From: Escherichia phage vB_EcoP_R4596
Reading direction: 5' to 3' (one strand)
Length of the DNA stretch: 45,130 nucleotides
Sequence record: MK373771.1
Under the pieces are notes generated by a model. It saw only the letters and a program-made list of their open reading frames with translations. It had not been told where the DNA came from and did not search any database. Made by a program: the position numbers and the translations under genes. Shown in pieces: positions 481 through 30,820 of this stretch (the first letter of the stretch is position 1; each line of letters begins with the position of its first letter).

Positions 481-659
481 ATAAGATGCTAATAGGTCGC
501 GGTCGGTAGACCGCTAAAGAAAGAGAACAGTAATAAGATGCAGTAGGAGGAACACCAGAAACCTAGCCAACCTAAGCTATCCTAGCTCTATATCTATTGC
601 TTTTCCTTAGTCTAACACGTTAGACAACCTATCTTATTCTTAGTGATGGTAACTTAGTG

Positions 660-1464: not shown

Positions 1465-1615
1465 GGTAAAGGCTGGCACTAGTCAGCCTATCAAGGCGCA
1501 AACCAAGCTCTTTAACAATTTGGATGGTAGCTTCTTAGTCTGGATAGGTTAAACCTAGGAGATTCTCTTGAGTCTCCTATAATGTAACCTAACTAACTAA
1601 ATGAGGATTAATAAC

Positions 1616-1975
1616 ATGGCTATGTCTAATATGACTTACTCTCAGGTTTACAACACCGCTCATGCTGCATTAGTTGAACGTATCTGGAATGATGATATTG
1701 ATTGTATCGATAACGCACATGATGCAATCCATGAGGTAGCGGACAGTGCTGTACCAATCTATTATGCTGACATCTTCTCAGTAATGGCGAGTGAGGGTAT
1801 TGATCACTTCTTCGAAGACTCCGGCCTGATGCCAGATACTAAGGATGTAACGGTCGTACTACAAGCCCGTATTTATGAACAACTCACCATTGATTTATGG
1901 GAACGTGTTCAAGATATGATTGTTGCGTACACCAATTACGCTGAGGATTCAGAAGAAGAAGAAGAGGAAGAATAA
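1616..1975 (+). CDS. ocr: Ocr-like DNA-mimic anti-restriction protein (T7 gp0.3 homolog, 119 aa)
   Basis: Translation MAMSNMTY...[44 protein letters not shown]...[15 protein letters not shown] plus poly-Glu tail matches T7 Ocr as recalled; GAGGA Shine-Dalgarno 8 nt before ATG 1616. Confidence 0.85.
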
Positions 1976-1977
1976 GG

Positions 1978-2091
1978 ATGGAAAAGCAATATAACTTTAT
2001 CTTTTCAGACGGTGTGACCCTGAAGTGTTCCCTGCGTTTCGCACAGATTCGCGAGGAAGTGCTAGGAACTACATACAAACTATTTAGCTGA
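1978..2091 (+). CDS. Small hypothetical ORF (37 aa)
   Basis: ATG immediately after the ocr stop, GAGGAAG upstream; no recognizable motif. Confidence 0.3.
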   Translation: MEKQYNFIFSDGVTLKCSLRFAQIREEVLGTTYKLFS

Positions 2092-2106
2092 CACTATAAG
2101 AGAGAG
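2081..2106 (+). promoter_or_regulatory. Divergent phage-RNAP promoter-like sequence
   Basis: TATTTAGCTGACACTATAAGAGAG resembles the ATTTACTGGACACTATAGAAG consensus but differs at the start site; followed by a 5' hairpin GGGCGCTCT-TGCG-AGAGTGCCC. Confidence 0.35.
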
Positions 2107-2343: not shown

Positions 2344-2407
2344 TGAGCCTATAGCCTACTTAAGTGGGCTATGTGAACACCATTCATTAACTCAAAAGGT
2401 GACTATT

Positions 2408-3331
2408 ATGACTACTGAAAACACCCTCCTGTCTGTTCGTGAAGCTGCAACCGCTGAGATCAAGCAACACTTAGACAATATCGGCACTTCTTACATCAAA
2501 GTTGGCGCTTGTCTTAATGAGTTACGCGGTGACTTTGAAGGTCAAAAAGACTTTTTGGCTTATGTAGAATCAGAATTTGGAATCAAGAAAGCACAATGTT
2601 ACAAGCTGATGAGTGTAGCCCGTGTCTTTGAAGGCGATGATCGCTTTAAAGGCGTGGCGATGCGTGTAATGCTGGCACTTGTTCCTTTCGCTGATGAAAA
2701 TATCATCATGGAGAAAGCCGCAGAACTTGCCGCAGCGGGCAAGCTGGACACTAATGCCGTAAATGCCCTGATTGATCCTAAGAAAGAGACAAAGGCCGAG
2801 ACGGTACAATCTAAGGCTGAGGCGGTAAAACCGCAGGAGAATGCGACTGAGGCCGCAGAAACTATGCAAGGACATGCGACCTTTGAGGATTTCATCTTAG
2901 AGAAGGCGAAAGAGGAATTACAAAGTGTGCCGCCAGTAAGTGAGTCGGGTAACGACGAATCCGCACCGTGGGAAGATGAAAGCAAGCCGGAAGCGCCAAA
3001 GGCCGCGCCACTGGATAACACGGCTAACACGGAGAACGCCGCTATGTCTGGCCTACTGGCACAAATTAAGGCACTGACTGAGCAATTACAGGCAGCTAAC
3101 GACCGCATCGCCGCCCTAACCAGTGCACGGGAAAGTAAGAAAGCGGCTGCGCCTATGCTTCCGCAGTTTAAATCCTCTTGCTTCTACGCTCGCTTAGGCT
3201 TGAGCGCCGAGGAAGCAACGAAGAAAACAGCAGTGAATAAGGCACGCCGTGAACTGGTTAAACTAGGGTATGGTGAAGGTCATGAGGCATGGCCTTTGAT
3301 CTCTGAGGCAGTAGAAGAATTAACTAAGTAA
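2408..3331 (+). CDS. Hypothetical early protein (307 aa) with low-complexity acidic/Ala-rich centre and coiled-coil C-terminal region
   Basis: Long ORF; AAGGTGA Shine-Dalgarno before ATG 2408 (track begins at GTG 2399); no kinase or other motif recognized. Confidence 0.6.
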   Translation: MTTENTLLSVREAATAEIKQHLDNIGTSYIKVGACLNELRGDFEGQKDFLAYVESEFGIKKAQCYKLMSVARVFEGDDRFKGVAMRVMLALVPFADENIIMEKAAELAAAGKLDTNAVNALIDPKKETKAETVQSKAEAVKPQENATEAAETMQGHATFEDFILEKAKEELQSVPPVSESGNDESAPWEDESKPEAPKAAPLDNTANTENAAMSGLLAQIKALTEQLQAANDRIAALTSARESKKAAAPMLPQFKSSCFYARLGLSAEEATKKTAVNKARRELVKLGYGEGHEAWPLISEAVEELTK

Positions 3332-6022: not shown

Positions 6023-6030
6023 TATTGATA

Positions 6031-6060
6031 GGCCATTCCTTCGGGAGTGGCCTTTTCTTT
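6031..6060 (+). terminator. Stem-loop terminator after the RNAP gene
   Basis: GGCCATTCC-TTCG-GGAGTGGCC followed by TTTTCTTT. Confidence 0.55.
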
Positions 6061-6095: not shown

Positions 6096-6111
6096 GTCTC
6101 ACATGTGAGAC
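6096..6111. repeat. 16-bp perfect palindrome GTCTCACATGTGAGAC (copy a)
   Basis: Read directly; immediately 5' of the promoter at 6113. Confidence 0.9.
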
Positions 6112-6278: not shown

Positions 6279-6294
6279 GTCTCACATGTGAGAC
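6279..6294. repeat. 16-bp perfect palindrome GTCTCACATGTGAGAC (copy b)
   Basis: Read directly; immediately 5' of the promoter-like sequence at 6299. Confidence 0.9.
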
Positions 6295-6479: not shown

Positions 6480-8468
6480 ATGGCTATTATTCAGAATGTA
6501 CCGTGTCCTGCCTGTCAAAAGAATGGACATGATATTACTGGCAACCATCTTATGATATTTGAGGATGGCGCTGGTTACTGTAATCGTGGTCACTTCCATG
6601 ATAACGGTAAGCCTTACTATCATAAGCCAGAGGGCGGCATCGAGATAACCGAATTGCCCATTACTGGCAATATCAAATACACACCTTCTCAATTCAAAGA
6701 AATGGAGAAGGAAGGGAAGATAAGCGACCCTAAGCTACGCGCCATCGCACTAGGTGGTATGCGTATGAAAGACCGTTGGGAGGTCATGAATGAGCAAGAA
6801 AGGGCAGAGCAAGAAGCAGAGTGGAAACTTGATGTTGAATGGTTCCTCACGCTTAAGCGTAAGAATCTTGTTTCCCGACACATTCGCGGCGACATTTGCG
6901 CATTGTATGATGTACGTGTCGGACATGATGAAGAGGGTAGAGTCTCACGGCATTACTATCCACGCTTCGAGAAAGGTGAACTAGTAGGCGCTAAGTGTCG
7001 CACATTACCTAAAGACTTTAAGTTTGGTCATTTAGGTAAACTATTTGGTATGCAAGATCTTTTCGGTATGAACACTTTGTCTCACGTGTTAGACAAGGGG
7101 AGACGAAAGGATTGCTTGCTTATTGTAGGCGGTGAACTTGATGCACTAGCAGCGCAGCAGATGCTCCTTGATTCTGCCAAAGGTACTAAGTGGGAAGGTC
7201 AGCCATACCATGTATGGTCTGTCAATAAAGGTGAGTCTTGCCTTGAAGAGATAGTGCAAAACCGTGAGCACATATCCCAATTCAAGAAGATTATATGGGG
7301 CTTTGATGGCGACGAGGTGGGGCAGAAGCAGAACCAACAAGCTGCTCGCCTGTTTCCTGGCAAATCCTACATCCTCGAATATCCATCTGGTTGCAAAGAT
7401 GCTAACAAGGCATTGATGGCTGGCAAGGCTAAAGAGTTTGTAGATGCATGGTTTAATGCCAAGTCATCTGATGAAGTCTTTGGTAGCCAGATTAAATCTA
7501 TCGCATCTCAAAGGGATAAGCTCAAGGCTGCACGTCCAGAACAAGGGCTGTCATGGCCTTGGCCTAAGCTAAACAAGGTAACGCTGGGTATCCGTAAGAA
7601 TCAGCTTATCATTGTAGGCGCAGGCTCTGGTGTGGGTAAGACTGAGTTCCTCCGTGAAGTAGTTAAGCATCTCATTGAAGAACACGGTGAATCTGTAGGC
7701 ATCATTTCTACAGAAGACCCGATGGTTAAGGTGTCCCGTGCTTTTATCGGTAAGTGGATTGATAAGCGTATTGAGCTACCGCCAACCAATGACCCGAAAG
7801 AAGATGGATACCGTGAGGTGTTCGACTATACCGAGGAAGAGGCTAACGCTGCCATTGACTATGTAGCTGATACAGGGAAGCTGTTTGTGGCTGACCTAGA
7901 GGGTGACTATTCAATGGAGAAGGTAGAGCAGACCTGCCTTGAGTTTGAGGCTATGGGTATTTCCAATATCATCATTGATAACTTAACGGGGATTAAATTA
8001 GATGAGCGTGCTTTTGGTGGGAAGGTTGGTGCACTTGATGAATGCGTCAAGCGGATTGGTACTATCAAAGACCGACACCCAGTTACTATATTCCTTGTAT
8101 CACACCTTACACGTCCTCCGGCAAACCGTACCCAACACGAAGAAGGTGGCGAAGTTATCCTTTCTGACTTCCGAGGCTCAGGAGCTATCGGATTCTGGGC
8201 ATCTTACGCCTTGGGCATCGAAAGGAACACGAGGGCAGAGACACTAGATGAGCGAACTACTACCTATATTTCCTGTGTTAAAGATAGGGATCAAGGGATT
8301 TACTCTGGTACTAAGATTATGCTTAAGGGTGACATCGCTACGGGCCGACTGCTAGAACCACAAGCCCGTACTAAGTCATTTGATACAGGTGAAGCAAGGC
8401 AACAAGAAGTACCTGATTTACCGGACACTATAGAAGAGACAACCTTTGACGATGAACAGGAGTTTTAA
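6480..8468 (+). CDS. DNA primase/helicase (T7 gp4-like, 662 aa)
   Basis: N-terminal Cys4 zinc motif CPACQ...CNRGH, Walker A GAGSGVGKTE, acidic C-terminal tail ending DDEQEF. Confidence 0.93.
   Translation: MAIIQNVPCPACQKNGHDITGNHLMIFEDGAGYCNRGHFHDNGKPYYHKPEGGIEITELPITGNIKYTPSQFKEMEKEGKISDPKLRAIALGGMRMKDRWEVMNEQERAEQEAEWKLDVEWFLTLKRKNLVSRHIRGDICALYDVRVGHDEEGRVSRHYYPRFEKGELVGAKCRTLPKDFKFGHLGKLFGMQDLFGMNTLSHVLDKGRRKDCLLIVGGELDALAAQQMLLDSAKGTKWEGQPYHVWSVNKGESCLEEIVQNREHISQFKKIIWGFDGDEVGQKQNQQAARLFPGKSYILEYPSGCKDANKALMAGKAKEFVDAWFNAKSSDEVFGSQIKSIASQRDKLKAARPEQGLSWPWPKLNKVTLGIRKNQLIIVGAGSGVGKTEFLREVVKHLIEEHGESVGIISTEDPMVKVSRAFIGKWIDKRIELPPTNDPKEDGYREVFDYTEEEANAAIDYVADTGKLFVADLEGDYSMEKVEQTCLEFEAMGISNIIIDNLTGIKLDERAFGGKVGALDECVKRIGTIKDRHPVTIFLVSHLTRPPANRTQHEEGGEVILSDFRGSGAIGFWASYALGIERNTRAETLDERTTTYISCVKDRDQGIYSGTKIMLKGDIATGRLLEPQARTKSFDTGEARQQEVPDLPDTIEETTFDDEQEF
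8415..8438 (+). promoter_or_regulatory. Phage-RNAP promoter inside the 3' end of the primase/helicase gene
   Basis: GATTTACCGGACACTATAGAAGAG. Confidence 0.65.
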
Positions 8469-8646: not shown

Positions 8647-8662
8647 GTCTCACATGTGAGAC
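8647..8662. repeat. 16-bp perfect palindrome GTCTCACATGTGAGAC (copy c)
   Basis: Read directly; flanks extend the potential stem to about 12 bp. Confidence 0.9.
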
Positions 8663-9857: not shown

Positions 9858-9873
9858 GTCTCACGTGTGAGAC
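9858..9873. repeat. Palindrome variant GTCTCACGTGTGAGAC (copy d, 15/16)
   Basis: One substitution in the central tetranucleotide; flanks AAGGG...CCTTT can extend the stem. Confidence 0.85.
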
Positions 9874-14392: not shown

Positions 14393-14408
14393 GTCTCACA
14401 TGTGAGAC
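14393..14408. repeat. 16-bp perfect palindrome GTCTCACATGTGAGAC (copy e)
   Basis: Read directly; 2 nt after the stop of the 14170-14391 gene and 14 nt before the promoter. Confidence 0.9.
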
Positions 14409-30804: not shown

Positions 30805-30820
30805 GTCTCACATGTGAGAC
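30805..30820. repeat. 16-bp perfect palindrome GTCTCACATGTGAGAC (copy f)
   Basis: Read directly; between two internal virion protein genes; flanks AAGG...CCTT and a following TTTATGAAT shared with the hairpin at 12648. Confidence 0.9.

What the first reader, a model, noticed from the sequence alone, without database searches (positions are those of the whole stretch)
2408..3331. Unassigned early protein in the slot occupied by the kinase in T7
The 307-aa protein upstream of RNAP shows no kinase motifs. It has a structured N-terminal domain, a long acidic low-complexity linker and a coiled-coil C-terminal region, and may be a new host-takeover factor.
Basis: inference. Interest (0 to 1): 0.4.

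Follow-up and report, generated by a model that had tools for sequence, protein, structure and literature searches.

The report
Phage DNA-binding protein with palindromic operators
The "unassigned" early protein next to the phage RNA polymerase gene looks like a site-specific DNA-binding protein that reads a 16-bp palindrome repeated about eight times in the phage's own genome and carries a decayed chaperone-recruiting (J) domain, so it is probably a regulator of the phage genome, not a kinase substitute.

Summary
The ORF is real: 2408-3331, 307 aa, directly upstream of the RNAP gene. The window is a Vectrevirus (K1-5/SP6 group), and the ORF is K1-5 gene 6 / SP6 gp7, annotated "hypothetical" everywhere. 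It has no kinase features.

It has four modules:
- an N-terminal DUF3102-type helix-turn-helix with the KorB/ParB DNA-binding fold;
- an acidic disordered linker with a conserved ..APW/F-D/E.. motif;
- a short leucine zipper;
- a C-terminal J-domain fold without the HPD motif. Two distant family members still have a true HPD J domain.

New finding: every homolog-bearing genome with enough sequence (except one member with a divergent helix) has a multi-copy palindrome. In the window it is GTCTCACATGTGAGAC, 8 sites against 0.17 expected. T7 has none. Recognition-helix residues co-vary with half-site bases across independent lineages: residue 66 K/R goes with C5, N/H with A5, S with G5; Q63W and Y65S go with other positions.

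Best explanation: a dimeric, KorB-like operator-binding protein that acts on the phage genome. Sites lie at the left end, next to three phage promoters and at gene boundaries. The physiological output is inferred only; it could be transcription timing, the origin, or partner recruitment. All evidence is computational.

The parts
2408..3331 (+). Gene for the 307-aa early protein (ortholog of K1-5 gene 6 / SP6 gp7; PHROG 4571)
2396..2401 (+). Shine-Dalgarno AAGGTG, 6 nt before ATG 2408
   Evidence: read from the sequence
2435..2782 (+). N-terminal domain, residues ~10-125. All-helical DUF3102-like domain with the KorB/ParB-type DNA-binding fold.
2543..2629 (+). Helix-turn-helix: helix 46-57, turn, recognition helix 61-74 (KAQCYKLMSVARVF). 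Q63, Y65 and K66 are the residues that co-vary with operator bases.
2783..3028 (+). Acidic disordered linker, residues 126-207 (net charge -11)
2954..2980 (+). Conserved short linear motif in the linker: D183-E-S-A-P-W-E-D-E191. Family pattern: acidic run, then x-[AVP]-P-[FW]-[DE].
   Evidence: Present in 38/130 family representatives against 8.2 (max 17) in shuffles. Where the LPQF anchor is present (35 of the 38) it lies upstream of it, mostly 52-83 aa (range 36-83).
3029..3136 (+). Single long helix, residues 208-243. Leucine-zipper-like a/d pattern: L216/L217, I220, L223, L227, A230, I234, L237. Presumed dimerisation element.
   Evidence: L223 is nearly invariant
3137..3328 (+). C-terminal J-domain-like fold, residues 244-307. 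Includes the conserved P249-x-L-P-Q-F254 lead-in and a basic helix II (K278-A-R-R-E-L-V-K285). G287-Y-G289 stands where HPD would be.
610..625 (.). Palindrome site 1, GTCTAACACGTTAGAC (A5-type half-sites). It lies 35 bp upstream of the -35 of the first sigma70-like early promoter (660-688). A left-end site is conserved in SP6, phiEa100, Kp7, Vibrio and Pseudomonas relatives.
6096..6111 (.). Palindrome site 2, GTCTCACATGTGAGAC. It ends 2 bp before phage promoter 6114-6131, just after the early terminator.
6279..6294 (.). Palindrome site 3 (exact copy), 5 bp before phage promoter 6300-6317
7079..7094 (.). Palindrome site 4, GTCTCACGTGTTAGAC, inside the primase/helicase ORF. The codon is CAC (His) here and AAC (Asn) in SP6 and Kp7, which tracks the operator type.
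8647..8662 (.). Palindrome site 5 (exact copy) after the primase/helicase gene. It is embedded in a longer stem with G.U pairs and a T-rich tail.
9858..9873 (.). Palindrome site 6, GTCTCACGTGTGAGAC, before the DNA polymerase gene. It has an extended stem whose flanks differ from SP6 in a compensatory way.
14393..14408 (.). Palindrome site 7 (exact copy), 15 bp before phage promoter 14424-14441
30805..30820 (.). Palindrome site 8 (exact copy) in a late-region intergenic stretch, with an extended stem

Best explanation
The gene encodes a modular, probably dimeric, sequence-specific DNA-binding protein. It is made early, from host-RNAP transcripts.

Proposed mechanism:
- Its N-terminal DUF3102 domain is a KorB/ParB-type helix-turn-helix.
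- The recognition helix (K61-F74) reads the half-site GTCTCAC of the 16-bp palindrome GTCTCAC-AT-GTGAGAC.
- The leucine-zipper helix (208-243) pairs two HTH domains so that a dimer covers one palindrome.
- The eight sites in this genome lie upstream of the early promoters, directly upstream of three phage-RNAP promoters at the early/middle boundary, and at boundaries of replication genes.
- The protein is therefore most likely a KorB-like global regulator or organiser of the phage genome. It could control early-promoter shut-off, middle-promoter use, or origin function.
- The C-terminal domain descends from a true J domain but has lost the HPD motif. Together with the acidic P-[FW]-[DE] motif in the linker, it probably serves as a protein-protein docking surface rather than a DnaK ATPase activator.

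Status of each step:
- Shown computationally: the domain folds and homologies, the over-represented palindrome, and the co-variation between helix and half-site.
- Inferred: actual binding, dimerisation, the regulatory outcome, and the partner of the C domain.
For: 1. Fold and homology.
- DUF3102 hits occur in 26/56 members. Member P0237 passes the Pfam cutoff. BFVD structural hits include DUF3102 proteins.

2. The palindrome.
- The window has 8 matches against 0.17 expected.
- The largest hairpin-arm family has 4-10 copies in the window and in five of the six complete homolog-bearing genomes fetched. SP6 has only 2 exact-arm copies, but 9 sites when T/C is allowed at half-site position 4. Shuffled genomes reach at most 3 and T7 has 2.
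- In a truncated IMG/VR scan, 11 of 12 multi-site stretches are SP6-like phages.

3. Co-variation between recognition helix and half-site.
- A/S-Q-x-Y-K goes with GTCTCAC (Vectrevirus, Eracentumvirus, Vibrio, Pseudomonas and several metagenomic lineages).
- Q-C-Y/F-N goes with GTCCAAC or GTCYAAC.
- An independent, very distant Q-A-Y-N lineage has GTCTAAC, with 4 full 16-mer copies and 6 sharing the inner TCTAAC arm.
- Q-A-Y-S goes with GTCTGAC.
- S-Q-A-Y-R goes with GTCCCAC.
- Q-A-S-K goes with GTTTCAC.
- A-W-A-Y-K goes with GTCTCTT.
- A-Y-V-Y-R goes with GTCTACC, seen in two separate members.
- K/R opposite a C:G pair and N opposite A fit common contact preferences (own knowledge).
- The varying residues are at positions 3, 5 and 6 of the helix, which lie on one face.

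4. Tree. The NJ tree places K-type Vectrevirus inside the N/H-type clade, so at least four concordant changes are needed.

5. The site inside the primase ORF changes its codon (His/Asn) in step with the operator type.

6. Imperfect sites often break base pairing (C.U, A.G, C.A) yet keep family-type half-sites. The left-end site lies upstream of the early promoters. Both points argue for reading on double-stranded DNA.

7. Three of the 8 sites lie 2-15 bp upstream of three of the 13 phage promoters. The same adjacency is seen in SP6 and phiEa100.

8. J-domain descent.
- Profile against PDB, E 1.7e-4.
- The HPD-bearing members P0250 and P0251: Pfam DnaJ scores 43.7 bits for P0250, above the 27.8 cutoff; the family profile aligns to P0250 at prob 99.6%, E 1.5e-23.
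Against: - No experiment supports any of this; everything is inference from sequence.
- Co-variation can be inflated by shared descent. The NJ tree rests on one short protein. I did not test whether residues in other phage proteins track the palindrome type equally well.
- Three orthologous sites (8647, 9858, 30805) sit in extended stems with compensatory flanks and T-rich tails. In SP6-type genomes the imperfect sites in transcribed regions are U.G-compatible. An RNA-hairpin role is therefore real for at least some copies.
- The N domain is acidic overall (net -4).
- The window protein itself does not reach any Pfam threshold.
- Foldseek against PDB with the full-length model gave only weak hits, E about 4.
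- One family member with a divergent helix (L055) has no palindrome family. Some short contigs could not be assessed.
- The regulatory output is not determined by any analysis here.
Confidence: 0.6

Rival explanations
1. Host-takeover factor. The protein acts mainly on host components. It could engage or sequester DnaK or a J-protein partner through the J-like domain. It could also compete for SSB-tail-binding proteins through the acidic ..P-[FW]-[DE] motif. In this view any DNA binding is secondary or directed at host DNA.
For: - The gene is early and lies beside an Ocr-like gene.
- The J fold has a conserved basic helix II.
- Two distant members keep a genuine HPD J domain.
- The conserved acidic motif is enriched over shuffles.
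- The family spans phages of many Proteobacteria, which fits a conserved host target.
Against: - HPD is lost in 232/233 C domains examined, so canonical DnaK activation is unlikely.
- The most conserved and co-varying part is the HTH. Its apparent target is a palindrome carried by the phage itself.
- The resemblance of the motif to the SSB tail rests on memory and was not tested.
Confidence: 0.15
2. The palindromes are RNA-level elements: phage-RNAP terminators or pause sites, processing sites, or mRNA-stabilising hairpins next to ribosome-binding sites. They would be unrelated to this protein, and the helix/half-site correlation would be a by-product of shared phylogeny. The protein's real ligand would then remain unknown.
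For: - Sites 8647, 9858 and 30805 and their orthologs have extended stems with compensatory flank changes and T-rich tails.
- The annotators of Proteus phage Premi called them terminators.
- Many copies in other phages sit right before Shine-Dalgarno sequences.
- Imperfect SP6-type sites in transcribed DNA are U.G-compatible.
Against: - The arm sequence is conserved across phages whose proteins are only about 35% identical. A plain hairpin would drift.
- Many imperfect copies break pairing (C.U, A.G, C.A) but keep family half-sites.
- The left-end copy lies upstream of the early promoters.
- Both orientations of asymmetric centres occur.
- Most copies in Vibrio and Pseudomonas phages have no extended stem.
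- The residue-to-base changes recur in independent lineages.
- No Rfam family matches.
Confidence: 0.15
3. Replication-origin or initiation accessory protein. It would bind the paired palindromes beside the first two phage promoters downstream of the RNAP gene. From memory, this is the positional equivalent of the T7 primary origin at phi1.1A/B. Its J-derived domain would act in nucleoprotein remodelling.
For: - Two sites (6096, 6279) abut the first two phage promoters after the RNAP gene. This arrangement is conserved in SP6, phiEa100 and Njord.
- Further sites flank the primase/helicase and DNA polymerase genes.
- The C domain has J-domain ancestry.
Against: - Sites are dispersed over 30 kb, including the far left end and the late region. 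That fits a global regulator better than a single origin.
- HPD is lost.
- No origin has been mapped here. The T7 analogy is from memory.
Confidence: 0.1
4. Functional analog of the T7 gp0.7 protein kinase, suggested by its position alone. A published Vibrio phage annotation assigned kinase and anti-restriction labels to genes in this slot by position.
For: Same genomic slot, immediately upstream of the RNAP gene. The positional labelling is in PMC4099482.
Against: No kinase family hit in Pfam, NCBIfam or PDB. The folds are an HTH, a zipper and a J-like domain.
Confidence: 0.01

Closest known systems
KorB of plasmid RK2 and the ParB/Spo0J/SopB DNA-binding domains
   Different: There is no ParB N-terminal CTPase domain, no KorB/ParB C-terminal dimerisation domain and no ParA/IncC partner gene. 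The gene sits in a strictly lytic T7-supergroup phage and is expressed as an early gene. Dimerisation is presumably by a leucine zipper, and a J-like domain is attached.
Pfam PF11300 (DUF3102), an uncharacterised family of phage and plasmid proteins
   Same: The N-domain sequence is similar: 26/56 members hit, one passes the curated cutoff, and the family consensus scores 23.5 against 24.4 bits. Structural neighbours in BFVD are DUF3102 proteins.
   Different: The window protein itself scores below any threshold. DUF3102 has no assigned function, so this adds a name but no mechanism. If the operator model holds, it would supply a function for DUF3102.
J-domain (DnaJ/Hsp40) co-chaperones, including viral J proteins such as the polyomavirus T antigens
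   Same: The helix I-II-III fold matches, helix II is basic with a K-A-[YFR]-R-x-L signature, and an LG[LIV] motif is present. Family members P0250 and P0251 are true HPD J domains.
   Different: The HPD tripeptide is replaced by G-Y-G, or by Y-T-A in other members, and the II-III loop is shortened. Canonical stimulation of the Hsp70 ATPase is therefore not expected.
J-like domains without HPD (Tim16/Pam16)
   Different: No sequence relationship or shared context. The Tim16 role of pairing with a true J protein is only an analogy.
T7 gp0.7 (seryl-threonyl kinase and host shut-off protein)
   Same: Position immediately upstream of gene 1 in the early operon.
   Different: No sequence, domain or fold similarity.

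Membership tests
ParB/KorB family | Helix-turn-helix DNA-binding domain of the ParB/KorB fold | tested here: met
ParB/KorB family | N-terminal ParB-type (CTP-binding) domain | tested here: not met
   The HTH starts at about residue 10 and nothing precedes it. No ParB-N Pfam hit in the window protein or in 56 members.
ParB/KorB family | Binding to a repeated palindromic site (parS / OB) | tested here: inconclusive
   A repeated palindrome exists and co-varies with recognition-helix residues. Binding itself cannot be tested computationally here.
ParB/KorB family | Partner ParA/IncC ATPase encoded nearby | tested here: not met
   Gene lists of the window and of related genomes show no ParA-like gene.
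Pfam PF11300 DUF3102 | Score at or above the curated gathering cutoff (24.4 bits) | tested here: inconclusive
   Window protein: no hit at E<=10. Family consensus: 23.5 bits. Member P0237: 25.0 bits, which passes. P0245 scores 22.9 and P0242 22.6. 26/56 members hit at E<=1.
J-domain (DnaJ, PF00226) proteins | J fold (helices I-III, with an antiparallel II/III hairpin) | tested here: met
J-domain (DnaJ, PF00226) proteins | HPD tripeptide between helices II and III | tested here: not met
   The window has G287-Y-G289 at that place. HPD is absent in 232 of 233 C domains examined. It is present only in P0250 and P0251.
J-domain (DnaJ, PF00226) proteins | Pfam DnaJ score above the gathering cutoff (27.8 bits) | tested here: not met
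   Window protein: no hit. Family C-domain consensus: 13.4 bits. Only P0250 passes, at 43.7 bits.
J-domain (DnaJ, PF00226) proteins | Stimulation of Hsp70/DnaK ATPase | not testable with these tools
   This needs a biochemical assay.
T7 gp0.7-type protein kinase | Sequence or fold similarity to gp0.7 or any protein kinase | tested here: not met
   No kinase hit in Pfam, NCBIfam, PDB sequence search or fold searches.
PHROG 4571 | Full-length profile match | tested here: met
   E 8e-131, residues 1-307 against profile positions 1-287 of 289. The family has no known function.

The most novel reading that the evidence does not exclude
The family is a J-domain-derived module tethered to specific sites on a lytic phage genome. 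The ancestral, HPD-bearing members would recruit DnaK to defined DNA positions to remodel nucleoprotein complexes such as RNAP, the replisome or host silencers. The HPD-less majority, including this protein, would have been repurposed as a DNA-anchored docking or decoy platform. The acidic P-[FW]-[DE] motif may act as an internal mimic of the SSB C-terminal tail. This would be a new kind of phage genome-organising hub. It would also give DUF3102 a first function and a readable one-residue-to-one-base recognition code.
Probability: 0.15. Interest if true: 0.8.

Novelty: new variant of a known kind. Interest (0 to 1): 0.62.

Why it matters
SP6/K1-5-type phages are used for in-vitro transcription tools and as therapeutic phages. 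How they control the early-to-middle switch without T7's gp0.7 and gp2 is not known to me. This analysis gives a concrete, testable candidate:
- a conserved early DNA-binding protein;
- 5-10 conserved operator palindromes per genome;
- a simple specificity code (residue 66 paired with half-site base 5) that can be checked by a single amino-acid swap.

It would also assign a function to DUF3102. It documents a J domain decaying into a J-like module within one protein family. Finally, it flags that the "terminator" hairpins annotated in these genomes share a protein-recognition core.

Tried and rejected
- Direct family searches of the window protein (Pfam, NCBIfam, PDB sequences) gave only noise.
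- The N-domain profile against PDB sequences gave nothing meaningful.
- The first homolog search returned only relatives that were at least 86% identical.
A narrower alignment, A4, worked.
- Literature searches found no functional study of SP6 gp7 or K1-5 gp6, no paper quoting the palindromes, and nothing on the function of DUF3102.
- The SP6 genome paper is not held.
- The kinase idea was rejected because there is no similarity.
- A pure RNA-hairpin reading of the palindromes was considered and kept as a rival, not as the main model. The reasons are the non-pairing imperfect copies, the copy upstream of the early promoters and the recurrence of residue/base changes.
- I tried to find the genomic context of the HPD-bearing member P0250 and failed in viral and metagenome contigs. 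Only one further HPD relative exists in the protein collection.
- Rfam has no matching family.
- Not attempted: multimer or protein-DNA structure modelling (not available), and a control screen of other phage proteins for equally good co-variation.
Full report
**Identity of the window and the ORF**

The window is a complete or nearly complete Vectrevirus genome (K1-5/K1E-like, SP6 supergroup, Autographiviridae: Molineuxvirinae). It is 99.8% identical to Escherichia phage vB_EcoP-CC1 over the region. The ORF runs from ATG 2408 to the stop at 3329-3331 and encodes 307 aa. A good Shine-Dalgarno (AAGGTG, 2396-2401) precedes it, and it lies 63 nt upstream of the 875-aa RNAP gene. It belongs to the early unit: sigma70-like promoters at 660-688 and 1244-1272, and a terminator at 6030-6053 after the RNAP gene. 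It is the ortholog of K1-5 gene 6 and SP6 gp7 (64% identity). It matches PHROG 4571 (unknown function) at E 8e-131.

tblastn finds it in 213 phage records, all 43-47-kb Autographiviridae. These infect Escherichia, Salmonella, Klebsiella, Proteus, Erwinia, Pectobacterium, Vibrio, Pseudomonas, Marinomonas, Ralstonia and Edwardsiella. In the loci inspected the gene is directly, or one to four small genes, upstream of the RNAP gene. An exhaustive HMMER scan of 1.84 billion representatives finds only 130 clusters. The family is therefore lineage-restricted. GenBank calls it "hypothetical", with a few evident mislabels.

**Anatomy**

The window protein alone hits nothing in Pfam, NCBIfam or PDB sequences, and in particular no kinase. 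An AF2 model built on a 56-sequence family alignment (A1) has mean pLDDT 80.8. It shows four parts:
- A helical N domain, with helices over residues 10-122 and pLDDT >95 for about 30-125.
- A disordered linker, 126-207, with pLDDT 44-59 and net charge -11.
- One long helix, 208-243, with an a/d pattern of L216/217, I220, L223, L227, A230, I234, L237.
- A compact C domain, 244-307, with pLDDT 94-98.

**N domain**

- When all 56 members are scanned, 26 hit Pfam DUF3102, best E 1e-6.
- The family consensus scores 23.5 bits against a cutoff of 24.4. Member P0237 passes at 25.0 bits.
- BFVD neighbours are viral DUF3102 proteins.
- The best conserved stretch of the family is F57-G-I-K-K-A-Q-x-Y-K-L-M-x-V70. 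This is the turn and recognition helix of the HTH.

**C domain**

- A profile of the C domain (A2) searched against PDB sequences returns mostly J domains, about 23 of 34 hits at E<=10 (best 2ys8, E 1.7e-4; DnaJ 6jzb, 2.7e-3).
- hhalign against E. coli DnaJ 1-76 gives E 6.5e-5 at 64% probability.
- The signature K-A-[YFR]-R-x-L-x-K of helix II is kept. The HPD tripeptide is not: the window has G287-Y-G289, and HPD is missing in 232 of 233 C domains examined.
- The exception, P0250, is the most distant family member. Its C domain is a bona fide J domain (Pfam DnaJ 43.7 bits, cutoff 27.8; HHPDK). It still aligns with the family profile over its whole length: HTH, linker, zipper and the LP[QH]F lead-in (hhalign prob 99.6%, E 1.5e-23).
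- Its only relative in 5.8 billion clusters, P0251, has the same features.

The C domain is therefore a J domain that lost its catalytic motif in most of the family.

**Linker motif**

Inside the disordered linker there is a short conserved motif: an acidic run followed by x-[AVP]-P-[FW]-[DE], which is D183-ESAPWED-E191 in the window. It occurs in 38 of 130 representatives, against 8.2 (max 17) in shuffled sequences. Where the LPQF anchor is present (35 of the 38) the motif lies upstream of it, mostly 52-83 residues (range 36-83). From memory it resembles the SSB C-terminal tail (..DDDIPF). I did not test that resemblance.

**The palindrome**

The terminator scan flagged GTCTCACATGTGAGAC twice. 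The window contains five exact copies and three with 1-3 mismatches, at 610, 6096, 6279, 7079, 8647, 9858, 14393 and 30805. Only 0.17 are expected.

Each of the six complete homolog-bearing genomes I fetched has a multi-copy palindrome of the same design:
- SP6: GTC[TC]AAC-NN-GTT[GA]GAC, 9 sites.
- phiEa100: GTCTCAC-NN-GTGAGAC.
- Vibrio R24D and Pseudomonas Njord: GTCTCACA-N-TGTGAGAC, 8 and 10 copies.
- Proteus Premi and Klebsiella Kp7: GTCCAAC..GTTGGAC, 6 and 5 copies.

The largest hairpin-arm family in shuffled genomes has 2-3 members. In T7, which lacks the gene, it has 2. Eleven of these are SP6-like phages or fragments of them. No Rfam family matches, and no paper in the library quotes these sequences.

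**Co-variation**

I used 37 IMG/VR loci and 12 metagenomic contigs that carry divergent family members. In each I compared the recognition helix (window residues 62-67, A-Q-C-Y-K-L) with the dominant palindrome half-site in the same DNA.

| Helix | Half-site | Where seen |
|---|---|---|
| A/S-Q-x-Y-K | GTCTCAC | Vectrevirus; Eracentumvirus; two Vibrio groups; Pseudomonas; metagenomic L041, L044 |
| Q-A-C-K | GTCTCAC | L052 |
| Q-C-[YF]-N | GTCCAAC / GTCYAAC | Kp7-like; Proteus; BP12B-like; L023-L031 |
| Q-C-Y-H | mixed GTCTAAC / GTCCAAC | SP6 |
| Q-A-Y-N | GTCTAAC (4 full 16-mer copies; 6 sharing the inner TCTAAC arm) | L049, a very distant lineage, ~21% identical |
| Q-A-Y-S | GTCTGAC | L050, its sister |
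| S-Q-A-Y-R | GTCCCAC | L178 |
| Q-A-S-K | GTTTCAC (7 and 3 copies) | L045, L046 |
| A-W-A-Y-K | GTCTCTT | L048 |
| A-Y-V-Y-R | GTCTACC | two separate members, L053 and L180 |
| A-H-T-Y-R | AGTAACAC | L047 |

Residue 66 therefore tracks base 5: K/R with C, N/H with A, S with G. Residues 63 and 65 track other positions. These are positions 3, 5 and 6 of the recognition helix, which lie on one helical face.

An NJ tree of the protein nests K-type Vectrevirus inside an N/H-type clade (SP6, BP12B-like, Kp7-like, L030/31). The K-type phiEa100, Vibrio and Pseudomonas phages lie outside that clade, and L049 is far away. At least four concordant residue/base changes are needed.

Two details fit a recent N-to-K reversal in Vectrevirus. 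The left-end site (610) and one half of the in-gene site (7079) still have the A5 form. The in-gene site lies in the primase/helicase ORF and reads TCT-CAC-GTG (S-H-V) in the window, but TC[TC]-AAC-GTG (S-N-V) in SP6 and Kp7. The operator type is thus imposed on a coding sequence.

**DNA or RNA?**

Three orthologous sites (window 8647, 9858, 30805) are the tips of longer stems with G.U pairs, compensatory flank differences between phages, and T-rich tails. The Premi annotators called them terminators. An RNA or terminator role for these copies is plausible.

Most copies behave differently:
- They have no extended stem.
- Asymmetric centres occur in both orientations.
- Many imperfect copies break pairing (C.U, A.G, C.A) while keeping family-type half-sites.
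- The conserved left-end copy lies upstream of the first early promoter.

I therefore read the core as a double-stranded DNA operator for a symmetric dimer. Some copies have been co-opted into hairpins, or the reverse.

**Placement and likely role**

- Site 610-625 ends 35 bp upstream of the -35 hexamer of the first early promoter.
- Sites 6096 and 6279 end 2 and 5 bp before the first two phage promoters, just after the early terminator.
- Site 14393 ends 15 bp before another phage promoter.
- Thirteen promoter-like matches exist in all. The same adjacency is seen in SP6 and phiEa100.
- The remaining sites flank the primase/helicase and DNA-polymerase genes, and one lies in the late region.

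This resembles the dispersed-operator logic of KorB on RK2 (own knowledge). It suggests control of early-promoter shut-off and/or of the first middle promoters. An origin-related role at the post-RNAP pair is a sub-alternative. None of this output is demonstrated.

**Comparison and verdict**

- The protein works like a KorB/ParB-type operator binder. It is not a ParB family member, because it has no CTPase domain and no ParA partner.
- It is a distant DUF3102.
- It has a J fold but fails the HPD criterion, so it is J-like and not a J protein.
- It is not a kinase. A published Vibrio-phage annotation that placed kinase and anti-restriction labels in this slot did so by position only.

The "host-takeover" reading is only partly supported. 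The finding is a new variant of a known kind: an HTH regulator with dispersed palindromic operators. Its domain combination is unusual, and it offers an experimentally checkable recognition code. All of it rests on computation.

Noticed in passing
window 8647-8662, 9858-9873, 30805-30820 (orthologs: L005 8547, 9383, 30569; L009 8727, 9802, 29919; L010 8471, 9681, 32162): Three palindrome copies are the tips of longer stems (6-7 extra pairs including G.U) followed by T-rich tails. The flanks differ between phages in a compensatory way, so these copies look like terminators or RNA hairpins built on the operator core.
   Followed up: partly
window 7079-7094, inside the primase/helicase ORF 6480-8468: This in-gene palindrome copy is followed by AAGGGGAG. 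Its codon is His in K-type phages and Asn in N-type phages. In SP6 the copy is preceded by ATG, so an internal start for a shorter helicase isoform is conceivable.
   Followed up: no
window 2082-2099: A weak phage-promoter-like site (ATTTAGCTGACACTATAA, 3 mismatches to the consensus) lies upstream of the small ORF 2167-2343 and the target gene. The early gene and the RNAP gene might therefore also be transcribed by the phage RNAP. A similar claim was made for Vibrio phage phiA318 in PMC4099482.
   Followed up: no
window 1601-1975: A 124-aa ORF ending in a run of glutamates sits at the position where SP6 and other relatives annotate an Ocr-like anti-restriction protein. I did not check this by search.
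   Followed up: no
L127 (IMGVR_UViG_2974615129_000001, 37.8-kb contig): This Vectrevirus-like contig (97% identical primase and DNA polymerase) goes from the terminase and right-end genes to the primase gene within about 3.5 kb. It has no RNAP gene and no homolog of the target gene. It is either an assembly artefact or a deletion variant.
   Followed up: no
Family members P0129-P0235: Many homologs carry an extra N-terminal extension, commonly about 60-150 aa and up to ~250 aa, with a conserved ..LK..K.. patch. It is absent from the window protein and has no Pfam match.
   Followed up: no
GenBank records (e.g. KY295891, PP179315, OR594181, OQ729742): Orthologs are mislabelled 'endolysin'/'andolysin', 'similar to DNA polymerase' or 'periplasmatic protein'. 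These labels have no support in the searches done here.
   Followed up: partly
L129 2433-2448 and 2497-2512 (IMGVR_UViG_3300043399_000927): This viral contig is unrelated to the window. It has two GTCTCAC-NN-GTGAGAC sites 64 bp apart and is the only multi-site stretch that is not an SP6-like phage. It could be chance or another user of the same operator.
   Followed up: no
L045 7800-17556 and L046 (IMG/VR contigs): In the Q-A-S-K lineage the operator is GTTTCAC-N2-3-GTGAAAC. From memory, this is essentially the chromosomal parS half-site.
   Followed up: no
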